A DNA stretch of 10,752 nucleotides from IMG/VR virus record IMGVR_UViG_2695420889_000008; one strand, 5' to 3'. The notes beneath the pieces are model-generated. The model had not been told where the DNA came from. It did no database searches and worked only from the letters and a program-made list of their open reading frames with translations. The stretch is from a virus. Its lineage: Duplodnaviria; Heunggongvirae; Uroviricota; Caudoviricetes. A program made the position numbers and the translations under genes. This document shows positions 2,826 to 9,452 of the stretch, piece after piece; position 1 is the stretch's first letter; each line of letters opens with the position of its first letter.

Positions 2826-3215
2826 TCAGGCGGCTGCACCCGCCGGTTTCTCATACTTACTGATAGTGATCTCGACCTTCCCTTTCGGGATAACCGGTCC
2901 CCACTCCACCAGCATTCTTTTCACCTGGCTGTCGTCTTCCCACACACCCGCGTGGGTCAGGGCGTCAAACAGCGCCTTGTTATAGTTGTCCAGATCGCGG
3001 ATCCGGTTATCCGGAGGAAACAACACGATCTCCACTGAAGCAGGTGCCGACGTTGGTTTCGGCAGACGACGTAACTGCTCAACTATTGCTGCGCACGCCG
3101 CGCTCTGAAATTTTCGCCCCGCCTCGCTTATCAGGCTCTTACCAGCAAATGCCCCTTTGTTGGGGTGTCGCCAGTACGTGTTCACGCTGGGCGGGAAAGG
3201 CAGGATCAGCTTCAT
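2826..3215 (-). CDS. rusA: Holliday-junction resolvase RusA
   Basis: 129-aa ORF with RusA hallmarks: LPFPPSVNTYWRH and acidic catalytic cluster RIRDLDNYNKALFDALTHAGVWEDDSQV. ATGA overlap with the upstream gene. Confidence 0.85.
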   Translation of the reverse strand: MKLILPFPPSVNTYWRHPNKGAFAGKSLISEAGRKFQSAACAAIVEQLRRLPKPTSAPASVEIVLFPPDNRIRDLDNYNKALFDALTHAGVWEDDSQVKRMLVEWGPVIPKGKVEITISKYEKPAGAAA

Positions 3216-5718: not shown

Positions 5719-6866
5719 TTGCGCCCCCTTACCTCTGAAGAGTTCAGCGACGAATGAATAAGACGGGCAAGAAATGCCGCATCGTTAATTCGGTCATACA
5801 GACTTACAGCCAGCGGTGATTCAGCTTTTTCCAGCATGGGATAAAGCTGCTGCAACCAGACCTGATGAATTGATGAAATGTAGGAATAGAGAACGCTGGC
5901 GTTATGTGCAACGTCACTCGGTACAGCGAGCTTTGAAAGCTGTTTCTCCATCTGGTTAAAGGCATTGATGTATGCCTCTTTGAACTGGGCAGCACGTTTA
6001 CCCGTGAAACCCATAGCAAGAAACGCAAAGCCGTCGCGGGTTATTTGATAGCAAGGTAGTTTGCGGCCTGTGCAATCGGTGTAATCACTCACCGAAAAAT
6101 TGCGGGCAGTGAATGATGCGGAGCATTCAAGCGTGCGGATCTTTTTCAGAACATCGTCATGACGTTTGGAGAAGAAGTTGGCAACAGCCAGGGATGAAGT
6201 AACAGCCTGACCATCAACGATGGCAATTTCGGGTTGAGTGAGGGTTGGGATCGTAGCCATGATGGCAGCCTCTTTGGTGATTTTTAATAACTCACCACCA
6301 AGGCTTTCCACGACCTTATTGGTGGTGAGACGTACAGGGGTGGAAATACCGGTCACCAAAGAACCCGGCCCAACCGAAGTTGGCCCTGCACGCCCCACCA
6401 TAATTTGGGCGTAATGCTGCTCATGACACAAAAAAACCGCAAGAGCGCGGTTGTGCGCTTTGGTGAATTCCGGGTTTCCACGCCCGGCACCCGCTTTATA
6501 AGGTGCCTGAACAGTGTAACGTCCCGGAATGGCAGAATCAATGTGCTGGTGGTCCTTCACACTCAACAAAATCACGCCTGAATTTCCACAAAGGACTAAA
6601 GCACTCATGCGGGTAGTCTTTGCGAAGATAGATAACGCGCTGTGTTTCTGGCTCCCAACGAATAACATGGACATAAAGCCCTCTTCCGTCACGAAACCAG
6701 CGGTTAAGTTCCTGCACAACTCGCCCCCCACAGTCAGGTAAAGTTCTCTGTGGTTACTTACAGCCAGGTGATTTGGTAATCTGCATTCATGCCGTAACAA
6801 CAGGTGTTCAGCGACACTGACCACCAGCTGTTGCGACAAACGGTTATTTGCCGTTAAACTGTTCAT
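5715..6866 (-). CDS. Rha-family phage regulatory protein, C-terminal 181 aa, with ~200-aa in-frame N-terminal extension of unknown function
   Basis: Rha signature VTSSLAVANFFSKRHDDVLKKIRTL...ITRDGFAFLAMGFTGKRAAQFKEAYINAFNQME lies in the C-terminal half. The open frame runs 383 codons from an ATG (6864-6866) that overlaps the CII-like stop (ATGA). A second start at 6258-6260 has an AGAGG Shine-Dalgarno and would give a stand-alone Rha protein (5715-6260). Which start is used is unresolved. Confidence 0.55.
   Translation of the reverse strand: MNSLTANNRLSQQLVVSVAEHLLLRHECRLPNHLAVSNHRELYLTVGGELCRNLTAGFVTEEGFMSMLFVGSQKHSALSIFAKTTRMSALVLCGNSGVILLSVKDHQHIDSAIPGRYTVQAPYKAGAGRGNPEFTKAHNRALAVFLCHEQHYAQIMVGRAGPTSVGPGSLVTGISTPVRLTTNKVVESLGGELLKITKEAAIMATIPTLTQPEIAIVDGQAVTSSLAVANFFSKRHDDVLKKIRTLECSASFTARNFSVSDYTDCTGRKLPCYQITRDGFAFLAMGFTGKRAAQFKEAYINAFNQMEKQLSKLAVPSDVAHNASVLYSYISSIHQVWLQQLYPMLEKAESPLAVSLYDRINDAAFLARLIHSSLNSSEVRGRK
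6430..6452 (-). terminator. Intragenic terminator-like hairpin inside the N-terminal extension of the Rha ORF
   Basis: Minus strand: ACCGC-gctctt-GCGGT followed by T6-7. Short stem, so weak. Confidence 0.3.
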
Positions 6867-7748: not shown

Positions 7749-8423
7749 ATGAAAACAGTCCATGACATCCGGCGGTCTAACGCCAGAAAACTGAGAGATG
7801 GTGTTGGCGGGAATTCTTCCTTTGCCACCATGATTGATCGCGAGCCAACCCAGACCAGCAGGTTTATGGGAGATGGTGCTACTAAAAATATCGGTGACAG
7901 CATGGCACGGCACATCGAAAAATGTTTCGACCTGCCTGTCGGATGGCTTGATCAAGAACACCAGACCACGAACATCACAAAAAAACCTGATGTTTCAATC
8001 ACTAACAAACAAATAACGTTAGTCCCTGTCATATCATGGGTACAGGCCGGAGCATGGAAAGAAGTTGGCTATTCTGAGGTTGATTTGAGCACAGCAGAAA
8101 CTTATCCCTGCCCTGTACCCTGTGGCGAAATGACTTATATCTTGCGGGTGATTGGTGATTCAATGATTGATGAGTACCGCCCGGGAGACATGATTTTTGT
8201 TGATCCCGAAGTCCCTGCCTGCCACGGTGACGACGTTATTGCATTGATGCACGATACAGGCGAAACCACCTTCAAGCGATTGATAGAAGATGGAACACAG
8301 CGTTATCTCAAAGCATTAAACCCAAACTGGCCTGAGCCTTACATTAAGATTAACGGTAATTGCTCTATAATTGGTACAGTAATTTTCTCAGGAAAACCAA
8401 GAAGATACAAAATAAAGGCCTAA
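7749..8423 (+). CDS. CI/DicA-type prophage repressor with LexA-like S24 autopeptidase domain
   Basis: 224-aa ORF. C-terminal domain has the S24 motifs GDSM (catalytic Ser), GDMIFVD and TFKRL (catalytic Lys). N-terminal domain ends in the VGWLD motif typical of C2/CI-type DNA-binding domains. Confidence 0.85.
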   Translation: MKTVHDIRRSNARKLRDGVGGNSSFATMIDREPTQTSRFMGDGATKNIGDSMARHIEKCFDLPVGWLDQEHQTTNITKKPDVSITNKQITLVPVISWVQAGAWKEVGYSEVDLSTAETYPCPVPCGEMTYILRVIGDSMIDEYRPGDMIFVDPEVPACHGDDVIALMHDTGETTFKRLIEDGTQRYLKALNPNWPEPYIKINGNCSIIGTVIFSGKPRRYKIKA

Positions 8424-8434
8424 TCAATATTTAT

Positions 8435-8457
8435 AACCTGCTTCGGCAGGTTTTTTT
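8435..8457 (+). terminator. Rho-independent terminator after the repressor gene
   Basis: AACCTGC-ttcg-GCAGGTT hairpin followed by T7, 12 nt after the cI stop. Confidence 0.75.
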
Positions 8458-8461
8458 ATAC

Positions 8462-8494
8462 TTGACAATGTACCCACAAGATACATAATGTATC
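8462..8494 (+). promoter_or_regulatory. PL/PdicB-like repressor-controlled promoter with embedded operator
   Basis: -35 TTGACA (8462-8467), 16-bp spacer, -10 CATAAT (8484-8489). Operator-like TGTACC-cacaa-GATACA (8469-8485) fills the spacer; the 15-bp perfect palindrome GATACATAATGTATC (8480-8494) overlaps the -10. Confidence 0.6.
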
Positions 8495-8892
8495 TAAAAG
8501 AAACATGCCGCAGGCAAGATTAAACAAAATTTGGTTGTAACACGGCGTATGGCACATGCGTCGTTAGCGGTCTGGGGACGTTAAAGGGGACAATCCACTC
8601 CTTGCTCGGGCAAAAAAACCAGGTAGCCGGAATGTGCAAGTCAATGATGATGCTGATAAGACGCCTAACCAGCGCGGCGATCCGGTTTGACGCCTGGGAA
8701 GAGACCAGGGTGCAACGATGAGGGCATTTATGGAACCGCGACAAAGTGTGGTGCCGTAACTGGCTAAGTGCTCTCAGCGTTGTGGTAATCCGCGAAATGG
8801 CGCGGCGGTAAGTATGGCGGGGTTACTCTTTCCCCGTTGAGGACACCGGATTGTCAGGTTGACCATACGCCTGAGTGACAACCCCACCACAA

Positions 8893-8952
8893 CAGCCACT
8901 GCTTTGGCGGTACCAGTTTGTACACTTGCTTCCGGCTGGTACCGCTCTTTTT
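8893..8952 (+). ncRNA. dicF: DicF-like small RNA with intrinsic terminator (tentative)
   Basis: TTTGGCGGTACCAGTTTGTAC matches the remembered E. coli Qin DicF core GTTTGGCGGTATCAGTTTTAC at 19 of 22 positions. It sits in an 11-bp-stem hairpin (GGCGGTACCAG 8906-8916 / CTGGTACCGCT 8936-8946) followed by TCTTTTT. Context matches dicA - promoter - leader - dicF. Compared from memory, not by search. Confidence 0.45.
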
Positions 8953-9041
8953 ACAAAACAGAGAAGAGCATCACCGGACGACGGGCTCATAACCCAATCC
9001 AGCCGGGCGGCTGCCACCGCAGGTGTTCTTCTCTGTTTTGT
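8953..9041 (+). other. Large RNA hairpin (17-bp stem) in the leader just upstream of the first left-operon gene
   Basis: ACAAAACAGAGAAGAGC (8953-8969) pairs with GTTCTTCTCTGTTTTGT (9025-9041) with one G-U wobble. The 55-nt loop holds two small hairpins (CAGCC-gggc-GGCTG, CACC-gca-GGTG). Candidate RNase III or regulatory element. Confidence 0.45.
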
Positions 9042-9089
9042 GGAGAAACCAACCGACCTTGCAGGGTCGATATGATGAGGAGCAGCAAA

Positions 9090-9452
9090 ATGGCTAGCGA
9101 ACGCAGTACTGATGTGCAGGCATTTATCGGGGAGCTGGACGGCGGCGTATTTGAAACCAAAATCGGCGCTGTTCTCAGTGAAGTCGCTTCCGGTGTGATG
9201 AACACGAAAACCAAAGGTAAGGTCTCGCTCAACCTGGAAATCGAACCGTTTGATGAGAACCGTGTGAAAATCAAACACAAACTCTCATATGTTCGCCCGA
9301 CTAACCGCGGGAAAATTTCCGAAGAAGACACCACCGAAACGCCGATGTATGTCAATCGCGGTGGTCGCCTGACTATTCTGCAGGAAGACCAGGGACAATT
9401 ACTGACTCTTGCCGGTGAACCTGACGGAAAACTCCGCGCAGCAGGTAATTAA
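9090..9452 (+). CDS. Hypothetical 120-aa early left-operon protein (YfdP-like by recollection)
   Basis: ORF starting MASERSTDVQAF with GAGGAG Shine-Dalgarno 7 nt upstream; in-frame ATGs at 9072 and 9075 lack a Shine-Dalgarno. Function unknown. Confidence 0.6.
   Translation: MASERSTDVQAFIGELDGGVFETKIGAVLSEVASGVMNTKTKGKVSLNLEIEPFDENRVKIKHKLSYVRPTNRGKISEEDTTETPMYVNRGGRLTILQEDQGQLLTLAGEPDGKLRAAGN

What the first reader, a model, noticed from the sequence alone, without database searches (positions are those of the whole stretch)
8462..9089. Repressor-controlled ~600-nt ORF-poor leader carrying a diverged DicF-like sRNA
A consensus promoter with an embedded operator sits right after the repressor terminator and drives ~600 nt with no ORF over 30 codons before the first gene. 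The leader holds a 9-bp stem at 8546-8566 with G-U wobbles (RNA-specific), a DicF-like core in an 11-bp terminator hairpin (8906-8952), and a 17-bp-stem hairpin (8953-9041). The loop inside the DicF-like hairpin differs from the remembered K-12 DicF, so its mRNA targets may not be ftsZ. A 29-codon ORF (8632-8721, MCKSMMMLIRRLTSAAIRFDAWEETRVQR) could be a ydfA/B/C-type micro-protein.
Basis: partly seen in the sequence, partly recalled or inferred. Interest (0 to 1): 0.65.

Follow-up and report, generated by a model that had tools for sequence, protein, structure and literature searches.

The report
Modular structured-RNA leader of prophage operon
The 600 bases between a prophage repressor gene and its first early gene are a chain of conserved folded RNA modules, not genes, ending in a DicF-related terminator hairpin that most likely makes a small RNA and blocks read-through; part is already published and part appears undescribed.

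Summary
A near-consensus promoter (8462-8489), overlapped by a perfect 17-bp palindrome, precedes about 600 nt with no conserved ORF before yfdP (9090).

The hairpin at 8906-8952 sits where dicF sits in K-12 Qin, behind the same conserved roughly 110-nt element (about 90% identical by eye). But it fails the Rfam DicF model, lacks DicF's 5' seed and shows no ftsZ complementarity.

It is also the 3' end of the published sRNA-17 of E. coli K1. Deleting sRNA-17 raises yfdP about 95-fold, which fits a terminator role.

The leader has five covariation-supported RNA modules:
- A, 8543-8709, plus a long helix to 8784.
- B, a pseudoknotted cargo at 8779-8893, in a slot that holds a real tRNA-Arg or the sRNA-17 body in sister phages.
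- The terminator.
- C, 8952-9042.
- A small hairpin at 9054-9069.

None matches Rfam 15. None of the listed best RefSeq matches carries an annotation. Module A occurs in at least ten enterobacterial genera.

The 29-codon ORF is not conserved. A put-type antiterminator test was negative.

Best reading: a processed noncoding precursor that yields a roughly 174-nt RNA (8779-8952) and gates the early-left operon. The functions of A and C remain unknown.

The parts
7749..8423 (+). ymfK: cI-like LexA-family repressor gene. Context only. It is transcribed in the same direction as the leader.
   Evidence: RefSeq annotation of the 100%-identical locus in E. coli O145:H28 RM12581.
8435..8459 (+). Intrinsic terminator of the repressor gene.
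   Evidence: Terminator scan: 7-bp stem AACCTGC/GCAGGTT followed by a T run. Annotated as a terminator in phage Ayreon.
8462..8495 (+). PL-type promoter (-35 at 8462-8467, -10 at 8484-8489) with a perfect 17-bp palindrome (8479-8495) as candidate operator.
   Evidence: 11/12 consensus match. Palindrome with 0 mismatches. Annotated as a promoter in Ayreon. Operator function is inferred.
8543..8709 (+). Module A core, a multi-helix RNA. Stem I 8543-8551/8555-8563. Stem II base 8568-8574/8620-8629. Conserved unpaired GGAAUGUGCAAG 8629-8640. Helix 8640-8642/8676-8678. Hairpin 8661-8675. Hairpin 8693-8697/8705-8709.
   Evidence: 24 sequences from at least 10 genera: 98.5% of cells paired against 30-42% for slid partners; 12 pairs with compensatory changes; 0 of 500 shuffles as high. 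No Rfam match.
8713..8784 (+). Helix 12: a long hairpin that abuts the cargo slot. CAACGATGAGGGCATTT pairs with TAAGTGCTCTCAGCGTTG.
   Evidence: 16 pairs, 8 of them with compensatory changes. dG -31.2, z -4.2.
8779..8893 (+). Module B, the cargo in the slot bounded by GTTGTGG...CCACAAC. P0 8779-8786/8886-8893. P1 8790-8794/8801-8805. P2a 8807-8809/8845-8847. P2 8819-8822/8832-8835. P3 8848-8856/8876-8884. Pseudoknot 8812-8817/8863-8868.
   Evidence: 25 sequences: 96.3% paired against 36-59% slid; 16 compensatory pairs; 0 of 500 shuffles. The same element lies upstream of dicF in Qin and in the P1 'dicF-like region'.
8903..8952 (+). DicF-family terminator hairpin (stem 8906-8918/8934-8946, U run 8948-8952). 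Predicted 3' end of a roughly 174-nt RNA spanning 8779-8952.
   Evidence: Fold z -3.85. 83 distinct family variants share a GGCGGUACCAG-type stem and have variable loops. Identical to the 3' end of the published sRNA-17.
8952..9042 (+). Module C: a 19-bp stem (8952-8972/9022-9042) closing a three-way junction with the conserved core GACGGGCUCAUAACCCAAUCC.
   Evidence: 24 sequences: 33 pairs, 7 of them compensatory, plus G-U pairs. z -6.56. Follows a DicF-type terminator in nearly all of 42 representatives.
9054..9069 (+). Hairpin D, with a conserved UGCAG-type loop, in the 5' UTR of the first gene.
   Evidence: Fold z -2.3. It recurs with different stems (GGCGG/CCGCC, GCGCC/GGCGC, GGCCA/TGGCC) ahead of different first genes.
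9077..9452 (+). Shine-Dalgarno GAGGAG (9077-9082) and yfdP (9090-9452), the first gene of the early-left operon.
   Evidence: RefSeq annotation and sequence.

Best explanation
The region is the untranslated leader of the prophage's early-left (PL-type) operon. It acts as a noncoding RNA precursor combined with a transcription barrier.

Proposed sequence of events:
1. Transcription starts near 8496 and first makes module A, a conserved multi-helix RNA, followed by the long helix 12.
2. Next comes a cargo slot closed by the helix GUUGUGG/CCACAAC. Sister phages carry a genuine tRNA-Arg(UCU) or the sRNA-17 body in this slot. This prophage carries the pseudoknotted module B, the same element that precedes dicF in Qin.
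3. The DicF-family hairpin then terminates most transcripts.
4. A cut at the junction of helix 12 and P0 releases an RNA of about 174 nt (8779-8952). This is the counterpart of sRNA-17 and of the dicF precursor. RNase E may trim it further.
5. Only read-through transcripts carry module C and hairpin D and reach yfdP-yfdQ-yfdR.

Shown: the structures, their homologies and their distribution. Taken from a published relative: a discrete RNA and the terminator effect. Inferred: the processing enzymes, the trans targets, and the roles of modules A and C.
For: Structure and strand:
- Covariation supports all modules on the + strand. Many G-U pairs would be A-C mismatches on the other strand.
- The fold z-score is -7.3 on the + strand.
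- In 8400-9100 the promoter scan lists only the 8462-8489 site on the + strand. This fits one precursor that is then processed.

The slot:
- Among 132 distinct phage segments with module A, the slot holds module B (45+), tRNA-Arg(UCU) (26), the sRNA-17 body (22) or another module (6). In 19 P1-like segments no slot follows.
- In sRNA-17-type loci the distance from slot start to the end of the U run is 194 nt. The RNA mapped by RACE and Northern blot is 193 nt (PMC7719688).

Terminator role:
- Deleting sRNA-17 raises yfdP by 2^6.6 and takes yfdR read counts from 0 to about 8.5 (PMC7719688).
- The paper's own alignment lists this strain (CP007136.1) as carrying the 3' 67 nt.

DicF link:
- Module B lies directly upstream of dicF in Qin.
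- DicF is made by RNase E cleavage at the 5' end, and by termination or RNase III at the 3' end (PMC5069750).

Coding excluded:
- The 29-aa ORF is not conserved.
Against: - No expression data exist for this prophage. The discrete RNA is extrapolated from a relative whose slot cargo differs.
- The sRNA-17 authors attribute the RNA to its own ArcA-controlled promoter, not to processing.
- Module B alone is not unusually stable (z -0.4).
- The U run has only five U.
- Hfq binding and trans targets are unknown.
- The pseudoknot rests on one covarying pair, and its 3' arm lay inside my search pattern.
- Nothing shows what modules A and C do.
- Part of the sequence conservation in modules A, B and C is imposed by the exact-match patterns used to collect homologues.
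Confidence: 0.6

Rival explanations
1. Module A is a cis-acting, put-like RNA that modifies RNA polymerase. PL-initiated transcripts would then read through the DicF-type terminator and later terminators without an N protein. Transcripts that lack module A would stop there.
For: - No N-like gene is annotated in the operon or in the rest of the locus.
- A strong terminator stands before the first gene.
- Module A is the first element after the promoter. It is promoter-proximal in many loci: a promoter match of at least 10/12 in 3 of 27 loci against 0.7% of control windows, and a -10 only 13 nt upstream in two Kosakonia loci.
- It has two adjacent stem-loops joined by 1-2 nt, both supported by covariation.
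- Its stem I arms, A-CGGCG...CAUGCGUCG, equal the base of HK022 putL stem I. The segment CGGAAUGUGC resembles put CGGCAAUGCUGC.
- No terminator directly follows module A in any context seen.
Against: - A covariance model built from 8 put RNAs scores putL 96.6 and putR 60.2 bits but finds nothing in this leader, nor in the five module-A loci included in that search, at E<=10 with filters off.
- The put stem II core GGCGGGUUCAGGAUGAACGGCAAU is absent.
- The local alignment score equals the shuffle mean.
- Deleting the terminator region in RS218 raises yfdP about 95-fold. So the terminator works efficiently where loci of the same type (L129, L132) carry module A upstream. RS218 itself could not be retrieved.
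Confidence: 0.2
2. The hairpin is a true functional DicF: a roughly 55-60-nt Hfq-dependent sRNA that blocks cell division through ftsZ when the prophage is induced.
For: - Same operon position and same upstream element as dicF.
- Shared TTTGGCGGTAYCAGTTT and a terminator fold.
Against: - No DicF model hit.
- Different loop and no 5' seed.
- ftsZ duplex energy equals that of shuffled sequence.
Confidence: 0.07
3. The leader encodes one or more micro-proteins, such as the 29-aa ORF at 8632-8721, like ydfA, ydfB and ydfC of the dicB operon.
For: - The ORF is present and is annotated as a hypothetical protein in Ayreon.
- Its ATG is invariant.
Against: - From that ATG, other subfamilies encode unrelated peptides of 6-73 aa.
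- Indels of 2, 4 and 6 nt fall inside the ORF.
- No Shine-Dalgarno sequence is evident upstream.
- The invariant ATG lies in the conserved RNA segment GGAAUGUGCAAG.
Confidence: 0.04
4. The conservation reflects DNA-level function, such as recombination joints between mosaic phage modules, or recent horizontal spread. No RNA function would be involved.
For: - The modules recombine freely.
- Boundary motifs GTTGTGG/CCACAAC and GGAGTGCGCTTCC recur at module edges.
- Many copies are nearly identical.
Against: - Compensatory base changes and strand-specific G-U pairs occur across genera.
- Slid-partner controls fall to 30-59% paired.
Confidence: 0.08

Closest known systems
DicF sRNA of the Qin prophage dicB operon (Rfam RF00039)
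   Same: - Lies in a repressor-controlled prophage early operon.
- Is directly preceded by the same structured element of about 110 nt (module B).
- Has a terminator hairpin sharing UUUGGCGGUAYCAGUUU.
- A gene follows that needs read-through.
   Different: - Fails the covariance model.
- Has a perfect 11-13-bp stem with a different 15-19-nt loop.
- Lacks the 5' seed UUUCUGGUGAC.
- Shows no ftsZ complementarity.
- No ydfA, ydfB or ydfC genes lie upstream; module A is there instead.
sRNA-17 of E. coli K1 RS218 (Sun et al. 2020, PMC7719688)
   Same: - Identical terminator hairpin and flank (3' 67 nt).
- Same slot after module A and helix 12.
- Same downstream genes yfdP and yfdR.
- The paper's own alignment lists this strain as carrying a 'degenerative sRNA-17'.
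   Different: - The 5' 125 nt of sRNA-17 are replaced here by module B.
- The authors describe an independent ArcA-regulated gene. They do not describe a leader cassette or a terminator.
P1 'dicF-like region' and ban operon leader (NC_005856 annotation)
   Same: - Module B plus a terminator lies just after the C1-controlled Pban promoter.
- Module A lies just before ban.
- tRNA genes lie in the same operon.
   Different: - In P1 the two modules are 2.2 kb apart.
- The P1 terminator hairpin is unrelated in sequence (GCCCAUCUUCGGGUGGGC).
HK022 put antiterminator RNA
   Same: - Sits directly downstream of PL in a lambdoid phage without N.
- Has two adjacent stem-loops.
- The base of stem I is almost identical.
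   Different: - About 90-170 nt against about 70 nt.
- The conserved stem II core is absent.
- The put covariance model gives no hit.
C4 antisense RNA of P1/P7
   Same: - A phage RNA closed by a terminal helix that encloses hairpins.
- It is cut out of a longer transcript. RNase P processing of C4 is recalled from the literature, not checked here.
- A bona fide C4 lies elsewhere in this window (6318-6405).
   Different: No sequence or model similarity to module B. Processing of module B is untested.

Membership tests
DicF (Rfam RF00039) | Scores at or above the 48-bit gathering threshold of the covariance model. | tested here: not met
   No hit at E<=10 in 8350-9200. No hit at E<=1 in Ayreon, P1 or phiV10. 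The K-12 control scores 76.7 bits.
DicF (Rfam RF00039) | Located in a prophage early operon downstream of the immunity repressor, behind the conserved dicF-upstream element. | tested here: met
   Window 8781-8880 is homologous to Qin L005 about 2755-2860, directly upstream of dicF.
DicF (Rfam RF00039) | Antisense complementarity to the ftsZ translation initiation region. | tested here: not met
   Best local duplex -18.1 kcal/mol, equal to the shuffle mean (19 of 40 shuffles as good). K-12 DicF gives -22.7 at ftsZ -28..-7.
DicF (Rfam RF00039) | 5' seed UUUCUGGUGAC, which pairs with xylR and pykA. | tested here: not met
   The pairwise alignment shows CAGCCACUGC in its place.
DicF (Rfam RF00039) | An RNase E-processed, Hfq-bound RNA of about 53 nt. 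| not testable with these tools
   No expression data are available.
sRNA-17 (PMC7719688) | The full 193-nt sequence. | tested here: not met
   Only the 3' 67 nt (window 8886-8952) match. The paper lists CP007136.1 among the 'degenerative' copies.
sRNA-17 (PMC7719688) | Lies in a prophage leader upstream of yfdP and ends at the GGCGGUACCAG terminator. | tested here: met
   Identical hairpin and same slot. Slot start to U run is 194 nt in sRNA-17-type loci.
HK022 put RNA | Matches a covariance model built from 8 put RNAs. | tested here: not met
   putL 96.6 and putR 60.2 bits. Nothing in the leader or in the five module-A loci searched at E<=10, filters off.
HK022 put RNA | Promoter-proximal position, with two adjacent stem-loops joined by about 1 nt. 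| tested here: met
   Stem I and stem II are joined by 1-4 nt and supported by covariation. Stem I starts about 47 nt after the predicted transcription start.
HK022 put RNA | Terminator read-through that depends on the beta' zinc-binding domain. | not testable with these tools
   Needs genetics or in vitro transcription.
tRNA | Cloverleaf recognised by ARAGORN or the Rfam tRNA model. | tested here: not met
   No tRNA in the window. Yet module B occupies the exact slot of tRNA-Arg(UCU) in phiV10, SPN1S and ST512.

The most novel reading that the evidence does not exclude
The leader may be one instance of an undescribed cassette system of temperate enterobacterial phages. A promoter-proximal structured RNA of about 170 nt (module A) would drive or protect a swappable slot. 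The slot carries a real tRNA-Arg(UCU), a tRNA-sized pseudoknotted RNA, or sRNA-17, and is capped by a DicF-family hairpin with a variable loop.

On this reading:
- DicF, sRNA-17 and the P1 'dicF-like region' are all products of one mobile RNA-expression module.
- Module A, and perhaps module C, is a new class of cis-acting RNA. It could be an RNA-only antiterminator distantly related to put, or a processing scaffold.
Probability: 0.3. Interest if true: 0.8.

Novelty: new variant of a known kind. Interest (0 to 1): 0.6.

Why it matters
- Prophage early operons control induction, and DicF is a textbook prophage sRNA.
- This analysis places DicF, the recently reported sRNA-17 and the P1 'dicF-like region' in one architecture: a conserved structured element followed by a terminator hairpin with a variable loop.
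- That architecture recurs in most E. coli genomes. The module B plus terminator query matches 4456 of 5426 complete genomes, at up to 8 places per genome.
- This suggests a family of sRNAs with diversified seeds and so different host targets. It also suggests reinterpreting sRNA-17 as a leader cassette and terminator.
- Two further covariation-supported RNA motifs, modules A and C, are unannotated in the listed best RefSeq matches and absent from Rfam. Close copies occur in 23% and 46% of complete E. coli genomes. They are candidates for new cis-regulatory RNAs in a heavily studied organism.
- The same slot holds a real tRNA-Arg(UCU) or a structured RNA. This offers a testable link between phage tRNA cassettes and sRNA evolution.

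Tried and rejected
- Rfam at gathering and at E<=10 on the leader and on four kinds of related loci: no family matched any module.
- ARAGORN: no tRNA or tmRNA in the window. None either in the T-arm-like insertions of related loci.
- put hypothesis: built a covariance model from 8 put RNAs. The result was negative.
- DicF function: ftsZ pairing was negative. A first attempt with unrestricted duplexfold was uninformative because it allows giant loops.
- Micro-protein: rejected for lack of conservation.
- Pairing between the module B P3 loop (CCAUACGCC) and module A GGCGUAUGG (8547-8555): a perfect 9-nt complement here, but not kept in P1-type phages. My rough estimate of the chance probability is about 0.03, so I treat it as probably coincidental.
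- boxA-like reading of CGCUCUUUUUAC at the terminator: most relatives have CGCCCUUUUU, so it was rejected.
- Full-text search for four module sequences: no paper.
- Faubladier and Bouché 1994 (PMC205167) and the RS218 genome record could not be retrieved. Statements about the 1994 paper rest on its title and on citations only.
- One fold_alignment run used wrongly trimmed minus-strand coordinates and was only partly usable.
- Context of module A in the 21 GTDB loci: my regex matched inside module A, so the cargo there was not classified.

Full report
**Source and layout**

The window is 100% identical to a lambdoid prophage of E. coli O145:H28 RM12581. RefSeq annotation of that locus gives this order:
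- a cro-like gene ymfT on the minus strand;
- the cI-like LexA-family repressor ymfK (7749-8423, +);
- about 660 nt with no annotated feature;
- yfdP (9090-9452), yfdQ, and an HD-hydrolase gene interrupted by IS600.

The finding therefore covers the leader of the early-left (PL-type) operon. No N-like gene is annotated in the locus.

**Checking the observation**

- The promoter scan finds TTGACA-16-CATAAT at 8462-8489 (11/12). It lies right after the repressor terminator at 8435-8452.
- A perfect 17-bp palindrome (8479-8495) overlaps the -10. Related sites elsewhere are not above chance, so its operator role is only plausible.
- No ATG-started ORF longer than 29 codons lies on the + strand. 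TTG- and GTG-started ORFs and minus-strand ORFs do exist.
- The three hairpins are real: stem 8543-8563 (z -2.05), terminator 8906-8946 plus U5 (z -3.85), long hairpin 8953-9041 (z -6.56).
- The 601-nt leader folds with z -7.3 on the + strand and -3.8 on the - strand.

**Is it DicF?**

By model, no.
- Rfam finds only C4 and isrK elsewhere in the window.
- It finds nothing credible in 8350-9200 at E<=10.
- As a control, the DicF model hits K-12 dicF at 76.7 bits. It misses phage Ayreon (98.5% identical leader), the P1 'dicF-like region' and phiV10.

By position and descent, yes.
- The roughly 100 nt upstream of dicF in Qin are about 90% identical (by eye) to window 8781-8880.
- The hairpins share TTTGGCGGTA(T/C)CAGTTT.
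- P1 carries the same element just downstream of its C1-controlled Pban promoter. There it is annotated 'dicF-like region'.

By function, probably not.
- The DicF 5' seed is missing.
- The best duplex with the ftsZ initiation region (-18.1 kcal/mol) equals the shuffle mean. K-12 DicF gives -22.7 at -28..-7.

**Published counterpart**

Sun et al. 2020 (PMC7719688) mapped a 193-nt 'sRNA-17' by RACE and Northern blot in an mEp460-like prophage of E. coli K1.
- Their supplementary alignment lists CP007136.1, the strain of this window, as carrying a 'degenerative' copy. That copy is the reverse complement of window 8886-8952.
- Deleting sRNA-17 raised yfdP by 2^6.6 and took yfdR read counts from 0 to about 8.5. 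This is what removal of a terminator ahead of yfdP would do.
- In IMG/VR loci of the sRNA-17 type, the distance from the slot start GTTGTGG to the end of the U run is 194 nt.
- So sRNA-17 is the slot cargo plus the terminator, read in the sense direction of the leader.

**The rest of the leader is a chain of structured RNA modules**

BLAST against phages showed a mosaic.
- Window 8529-8706 matches P1 and P7 between tRNA-Ile and ban.
- Window 8542-8785 matches phiV10-like phages directly upstream of a tRNA-Arg.
- Window 8779-8900 matches Qin-like and P1 sequences.
- Window 8905-9095 matches SfV-like and SfII-like phages.

I collected homologues by pattern scans of IMG/VR and GTDB genomes and tested structures.

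- *Module B (8779-8893).* 25 sequences and 35 pairs. 96.3% of cells are paired against 36-59% for slid partners. 16 pairs carry compensatory changes, and 0 of 500 shuffles reach that. It is a closing helix P0, three hairpins and a pseudoknot. One pair of the pseudoknot covaries.
- *Module A core (8543-8709).* 24 sequences from Escherichia, Salmonella and Klebsiella phages, plus genomes of Kosakonia, Citrobacter, Klebsiella, Enterobacter, Phytobacter, Kluyvera, Superficieibacter, Scandinavium, Pseudescherichia and Ca. Erwinia. 98.5% paired against 30-42% slid, with 12 compensatory pairs.
- *Helix 12 (8713-8784).* 8 of 16 pairs covary.
- *Module C (8952-9042).* 24 sequences and 33 pairs, 7 of them compensatory, plus G-U pairs.
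- *Hairpin D (9054-9069).* It recurs with different stems and a UGCAG-type loop ahead of different first genes.

The abundant G-U pairs argue for RNA on the + strand.

One caveat applies. The invariant cores of A, B and C partly reflect the exact patterns I searched with.

**The slot**

- Helix 12 ends at GTTG, and every cargo starts GTTGTGG and ends CCACAAC.
- Among 132 distinct segments with module A, the cargo is module B (45+), a genuine tRNA-Arg(UCU) with acceptor stem GTGGCAT/ATGCCAC (26), the sRNA-17 body (22) or another module (6). In 19 P1-like segments no slot follows.
- In the Uetakevirus phages examined (typing phage 10 of the phiV10 species, SPN1S, PAT1) and in Klebsiella phage ST512-KPC3phi13.3, module A lies between a portal-side gene and the large terminase gene, on the opposite strand. 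tRNA-Arg follows in three of them. In the typing phage 10 locus I also read a candidate promoter upstream and a DicF-type terminator downstream.

**The terminator family**

- 83 distinct hairpins share a GGCGGUACCAG/CUGGUACCGCC-type stem. Their stems covary and their loops differ.
- K-12 DicF is one member.

**Prevalence**

Close copies in 5426 complete E. coli genomes (megablast):
- Module A: 1261 genomes.
- Module B plus terminator: 4456 genomes, 815 of them full length, at up to 8 places per genome.
- Modules C plus D: 2490 genomes.

None of the listed best matches has an annotated feature under it.

- Other subfamilies give unrelated peptides of 6-73 aa.
- Indels of 2, 4 and 6 nt fall inside the ORF.

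**put test**

The prophage lacks an annotated N gene, and module A is the first element after the promoter. Its stem I arms equal the base of HK022 putL stem I. I therefore built a covariance model from 8 put RNAs.
- The model scores putL 96.6 and putR 60.2 bits.
- It finds nothing in the leader or in the five module-A loci searched, at E<=10 with filters off.
- The put stem II core is absent.
- The strong effect of deleting sRNA-17 also argues that the terminator is not constitutively overridden.
- Module A is nevertheless often promoter-proximal and is never followed directly by a terminator. A cis-acting role in elongation, processing or stability therefore remains likely but undefined.

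**Mechanism proposed**

The leader is a noncoding precursor combined with a barrier.
- Most transcripts from the promoter at 8462-8489, or reading through from the repressor gene, end at 8948-8952.
- Cleavage at the helix 12/P0 junction frees an RNA of about 174 nt (module B plus the DicF-family hairpin). This is the analogue of sRNA-17 and of the dicF precursor.
- By analogy with DicF, RNase E may trim it (PMC5069750).
- Read-through transcripts carry module C and reach yfdPQR. The 19-bp stem of module C looks like an RNase III substrate, which is an inference.

Shown here: structures, homology, distribution. Borrowed from a relative: the discrete RNA and the terminator effect. Inferred: the enzymes, the targets, and the roles of A and C.

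**Novelty**

- The DicF-type hairpin is a new variant of a known kind, alongside DicF, sRNA-17 and the P1 annotation.
- The following appear undescribed: modules A and C, the tRNA-or-RNA slot, and the unification of these RNAs into one cassette. They have no Rfam family, and no paper holds four of their sequences.

Noticed in passing
window 6318-6405 (-) and 6430-6506 (-): Full-length C4 antisense RNA (83.6 bits) and isrK (67 bits) lie upstream of a Rha-family regulator gene. This looks like a second, P1/P7 immI-like or Gifsy isrK-like antirepressor control module in the same prophage.
   Followed up: no
window about 10630 onward: The yfdR-like HD hydrolase gene (starts 10473) is interrupted by an IS600 insertion, according to the RefSeq annotation of the identical locus.
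   Followed up: no
L005:2933-3142, L003:2071-2190, L002:4435-4615: Sub-threshold STnc100 (RF02076) matches of 23-34 bits lie directly after dicF in Qin, in the P1 ban operon, and after yfdQ in Ayreon. This may be another recurrent prophage RNA element.
   Followed up: no
L202 about 1610-1720, L205 about 1560-1670, L186: In SPN1S, Klebsiella phage Kp4866-6 and one IMG/VR contig, the helix-12 arm carries an insertion with two tRNA T-arm-like motifs (CTGGTTCAATTCCAG and GTCCGTTCGATTCGGAC). ARAGORN calls neither a tRNA nor a tmRNA there in the loci tested.
   Followed up: partly
L004 about 2455-2500, L203, L204, L205, L005 about 2715-2755: A junction motif (GTCGTTAAAT...GGAGTGCGCTTCCRGKTGTG) recurs both before module A and before the cargo slot. 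The modules may be cassettes separated by a repeated punctuation or processing signal.
   Followed up: partly
L003:782-883 and 3001-3185 (P1 68791-68892 and 71010-71194): P1 has module B just after Pban and module A just before ban, 2.2 kb apart, with three tRNA genes and the tci genes between. The P1 flank after module A contains GATTTTCTGGTGATGAC, which resembles the DicF 5' seed.
   Followed up: partly
window 8547-8555 and 8863-8871: The module B P3 loop CCAUACGCC is a perfect 9-nt complement of GGCGUAUGG in module A stem I. The match is not conserved in P1-type phages, so it is probably coincidental. It could allow A-B pairing in this lineage.
   Followed up: partly
window 8564-8586: Two GTTA repeats (GTTAGCGGTCTGGGGACGTTA) inside module A fit the GTTA-N-GTTA ArcA-site pattern that Sun et al. 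used to find the 'promoter' of sRNA-17. Their promoter fragment may in fact be module A DNA.
   Followed up: no
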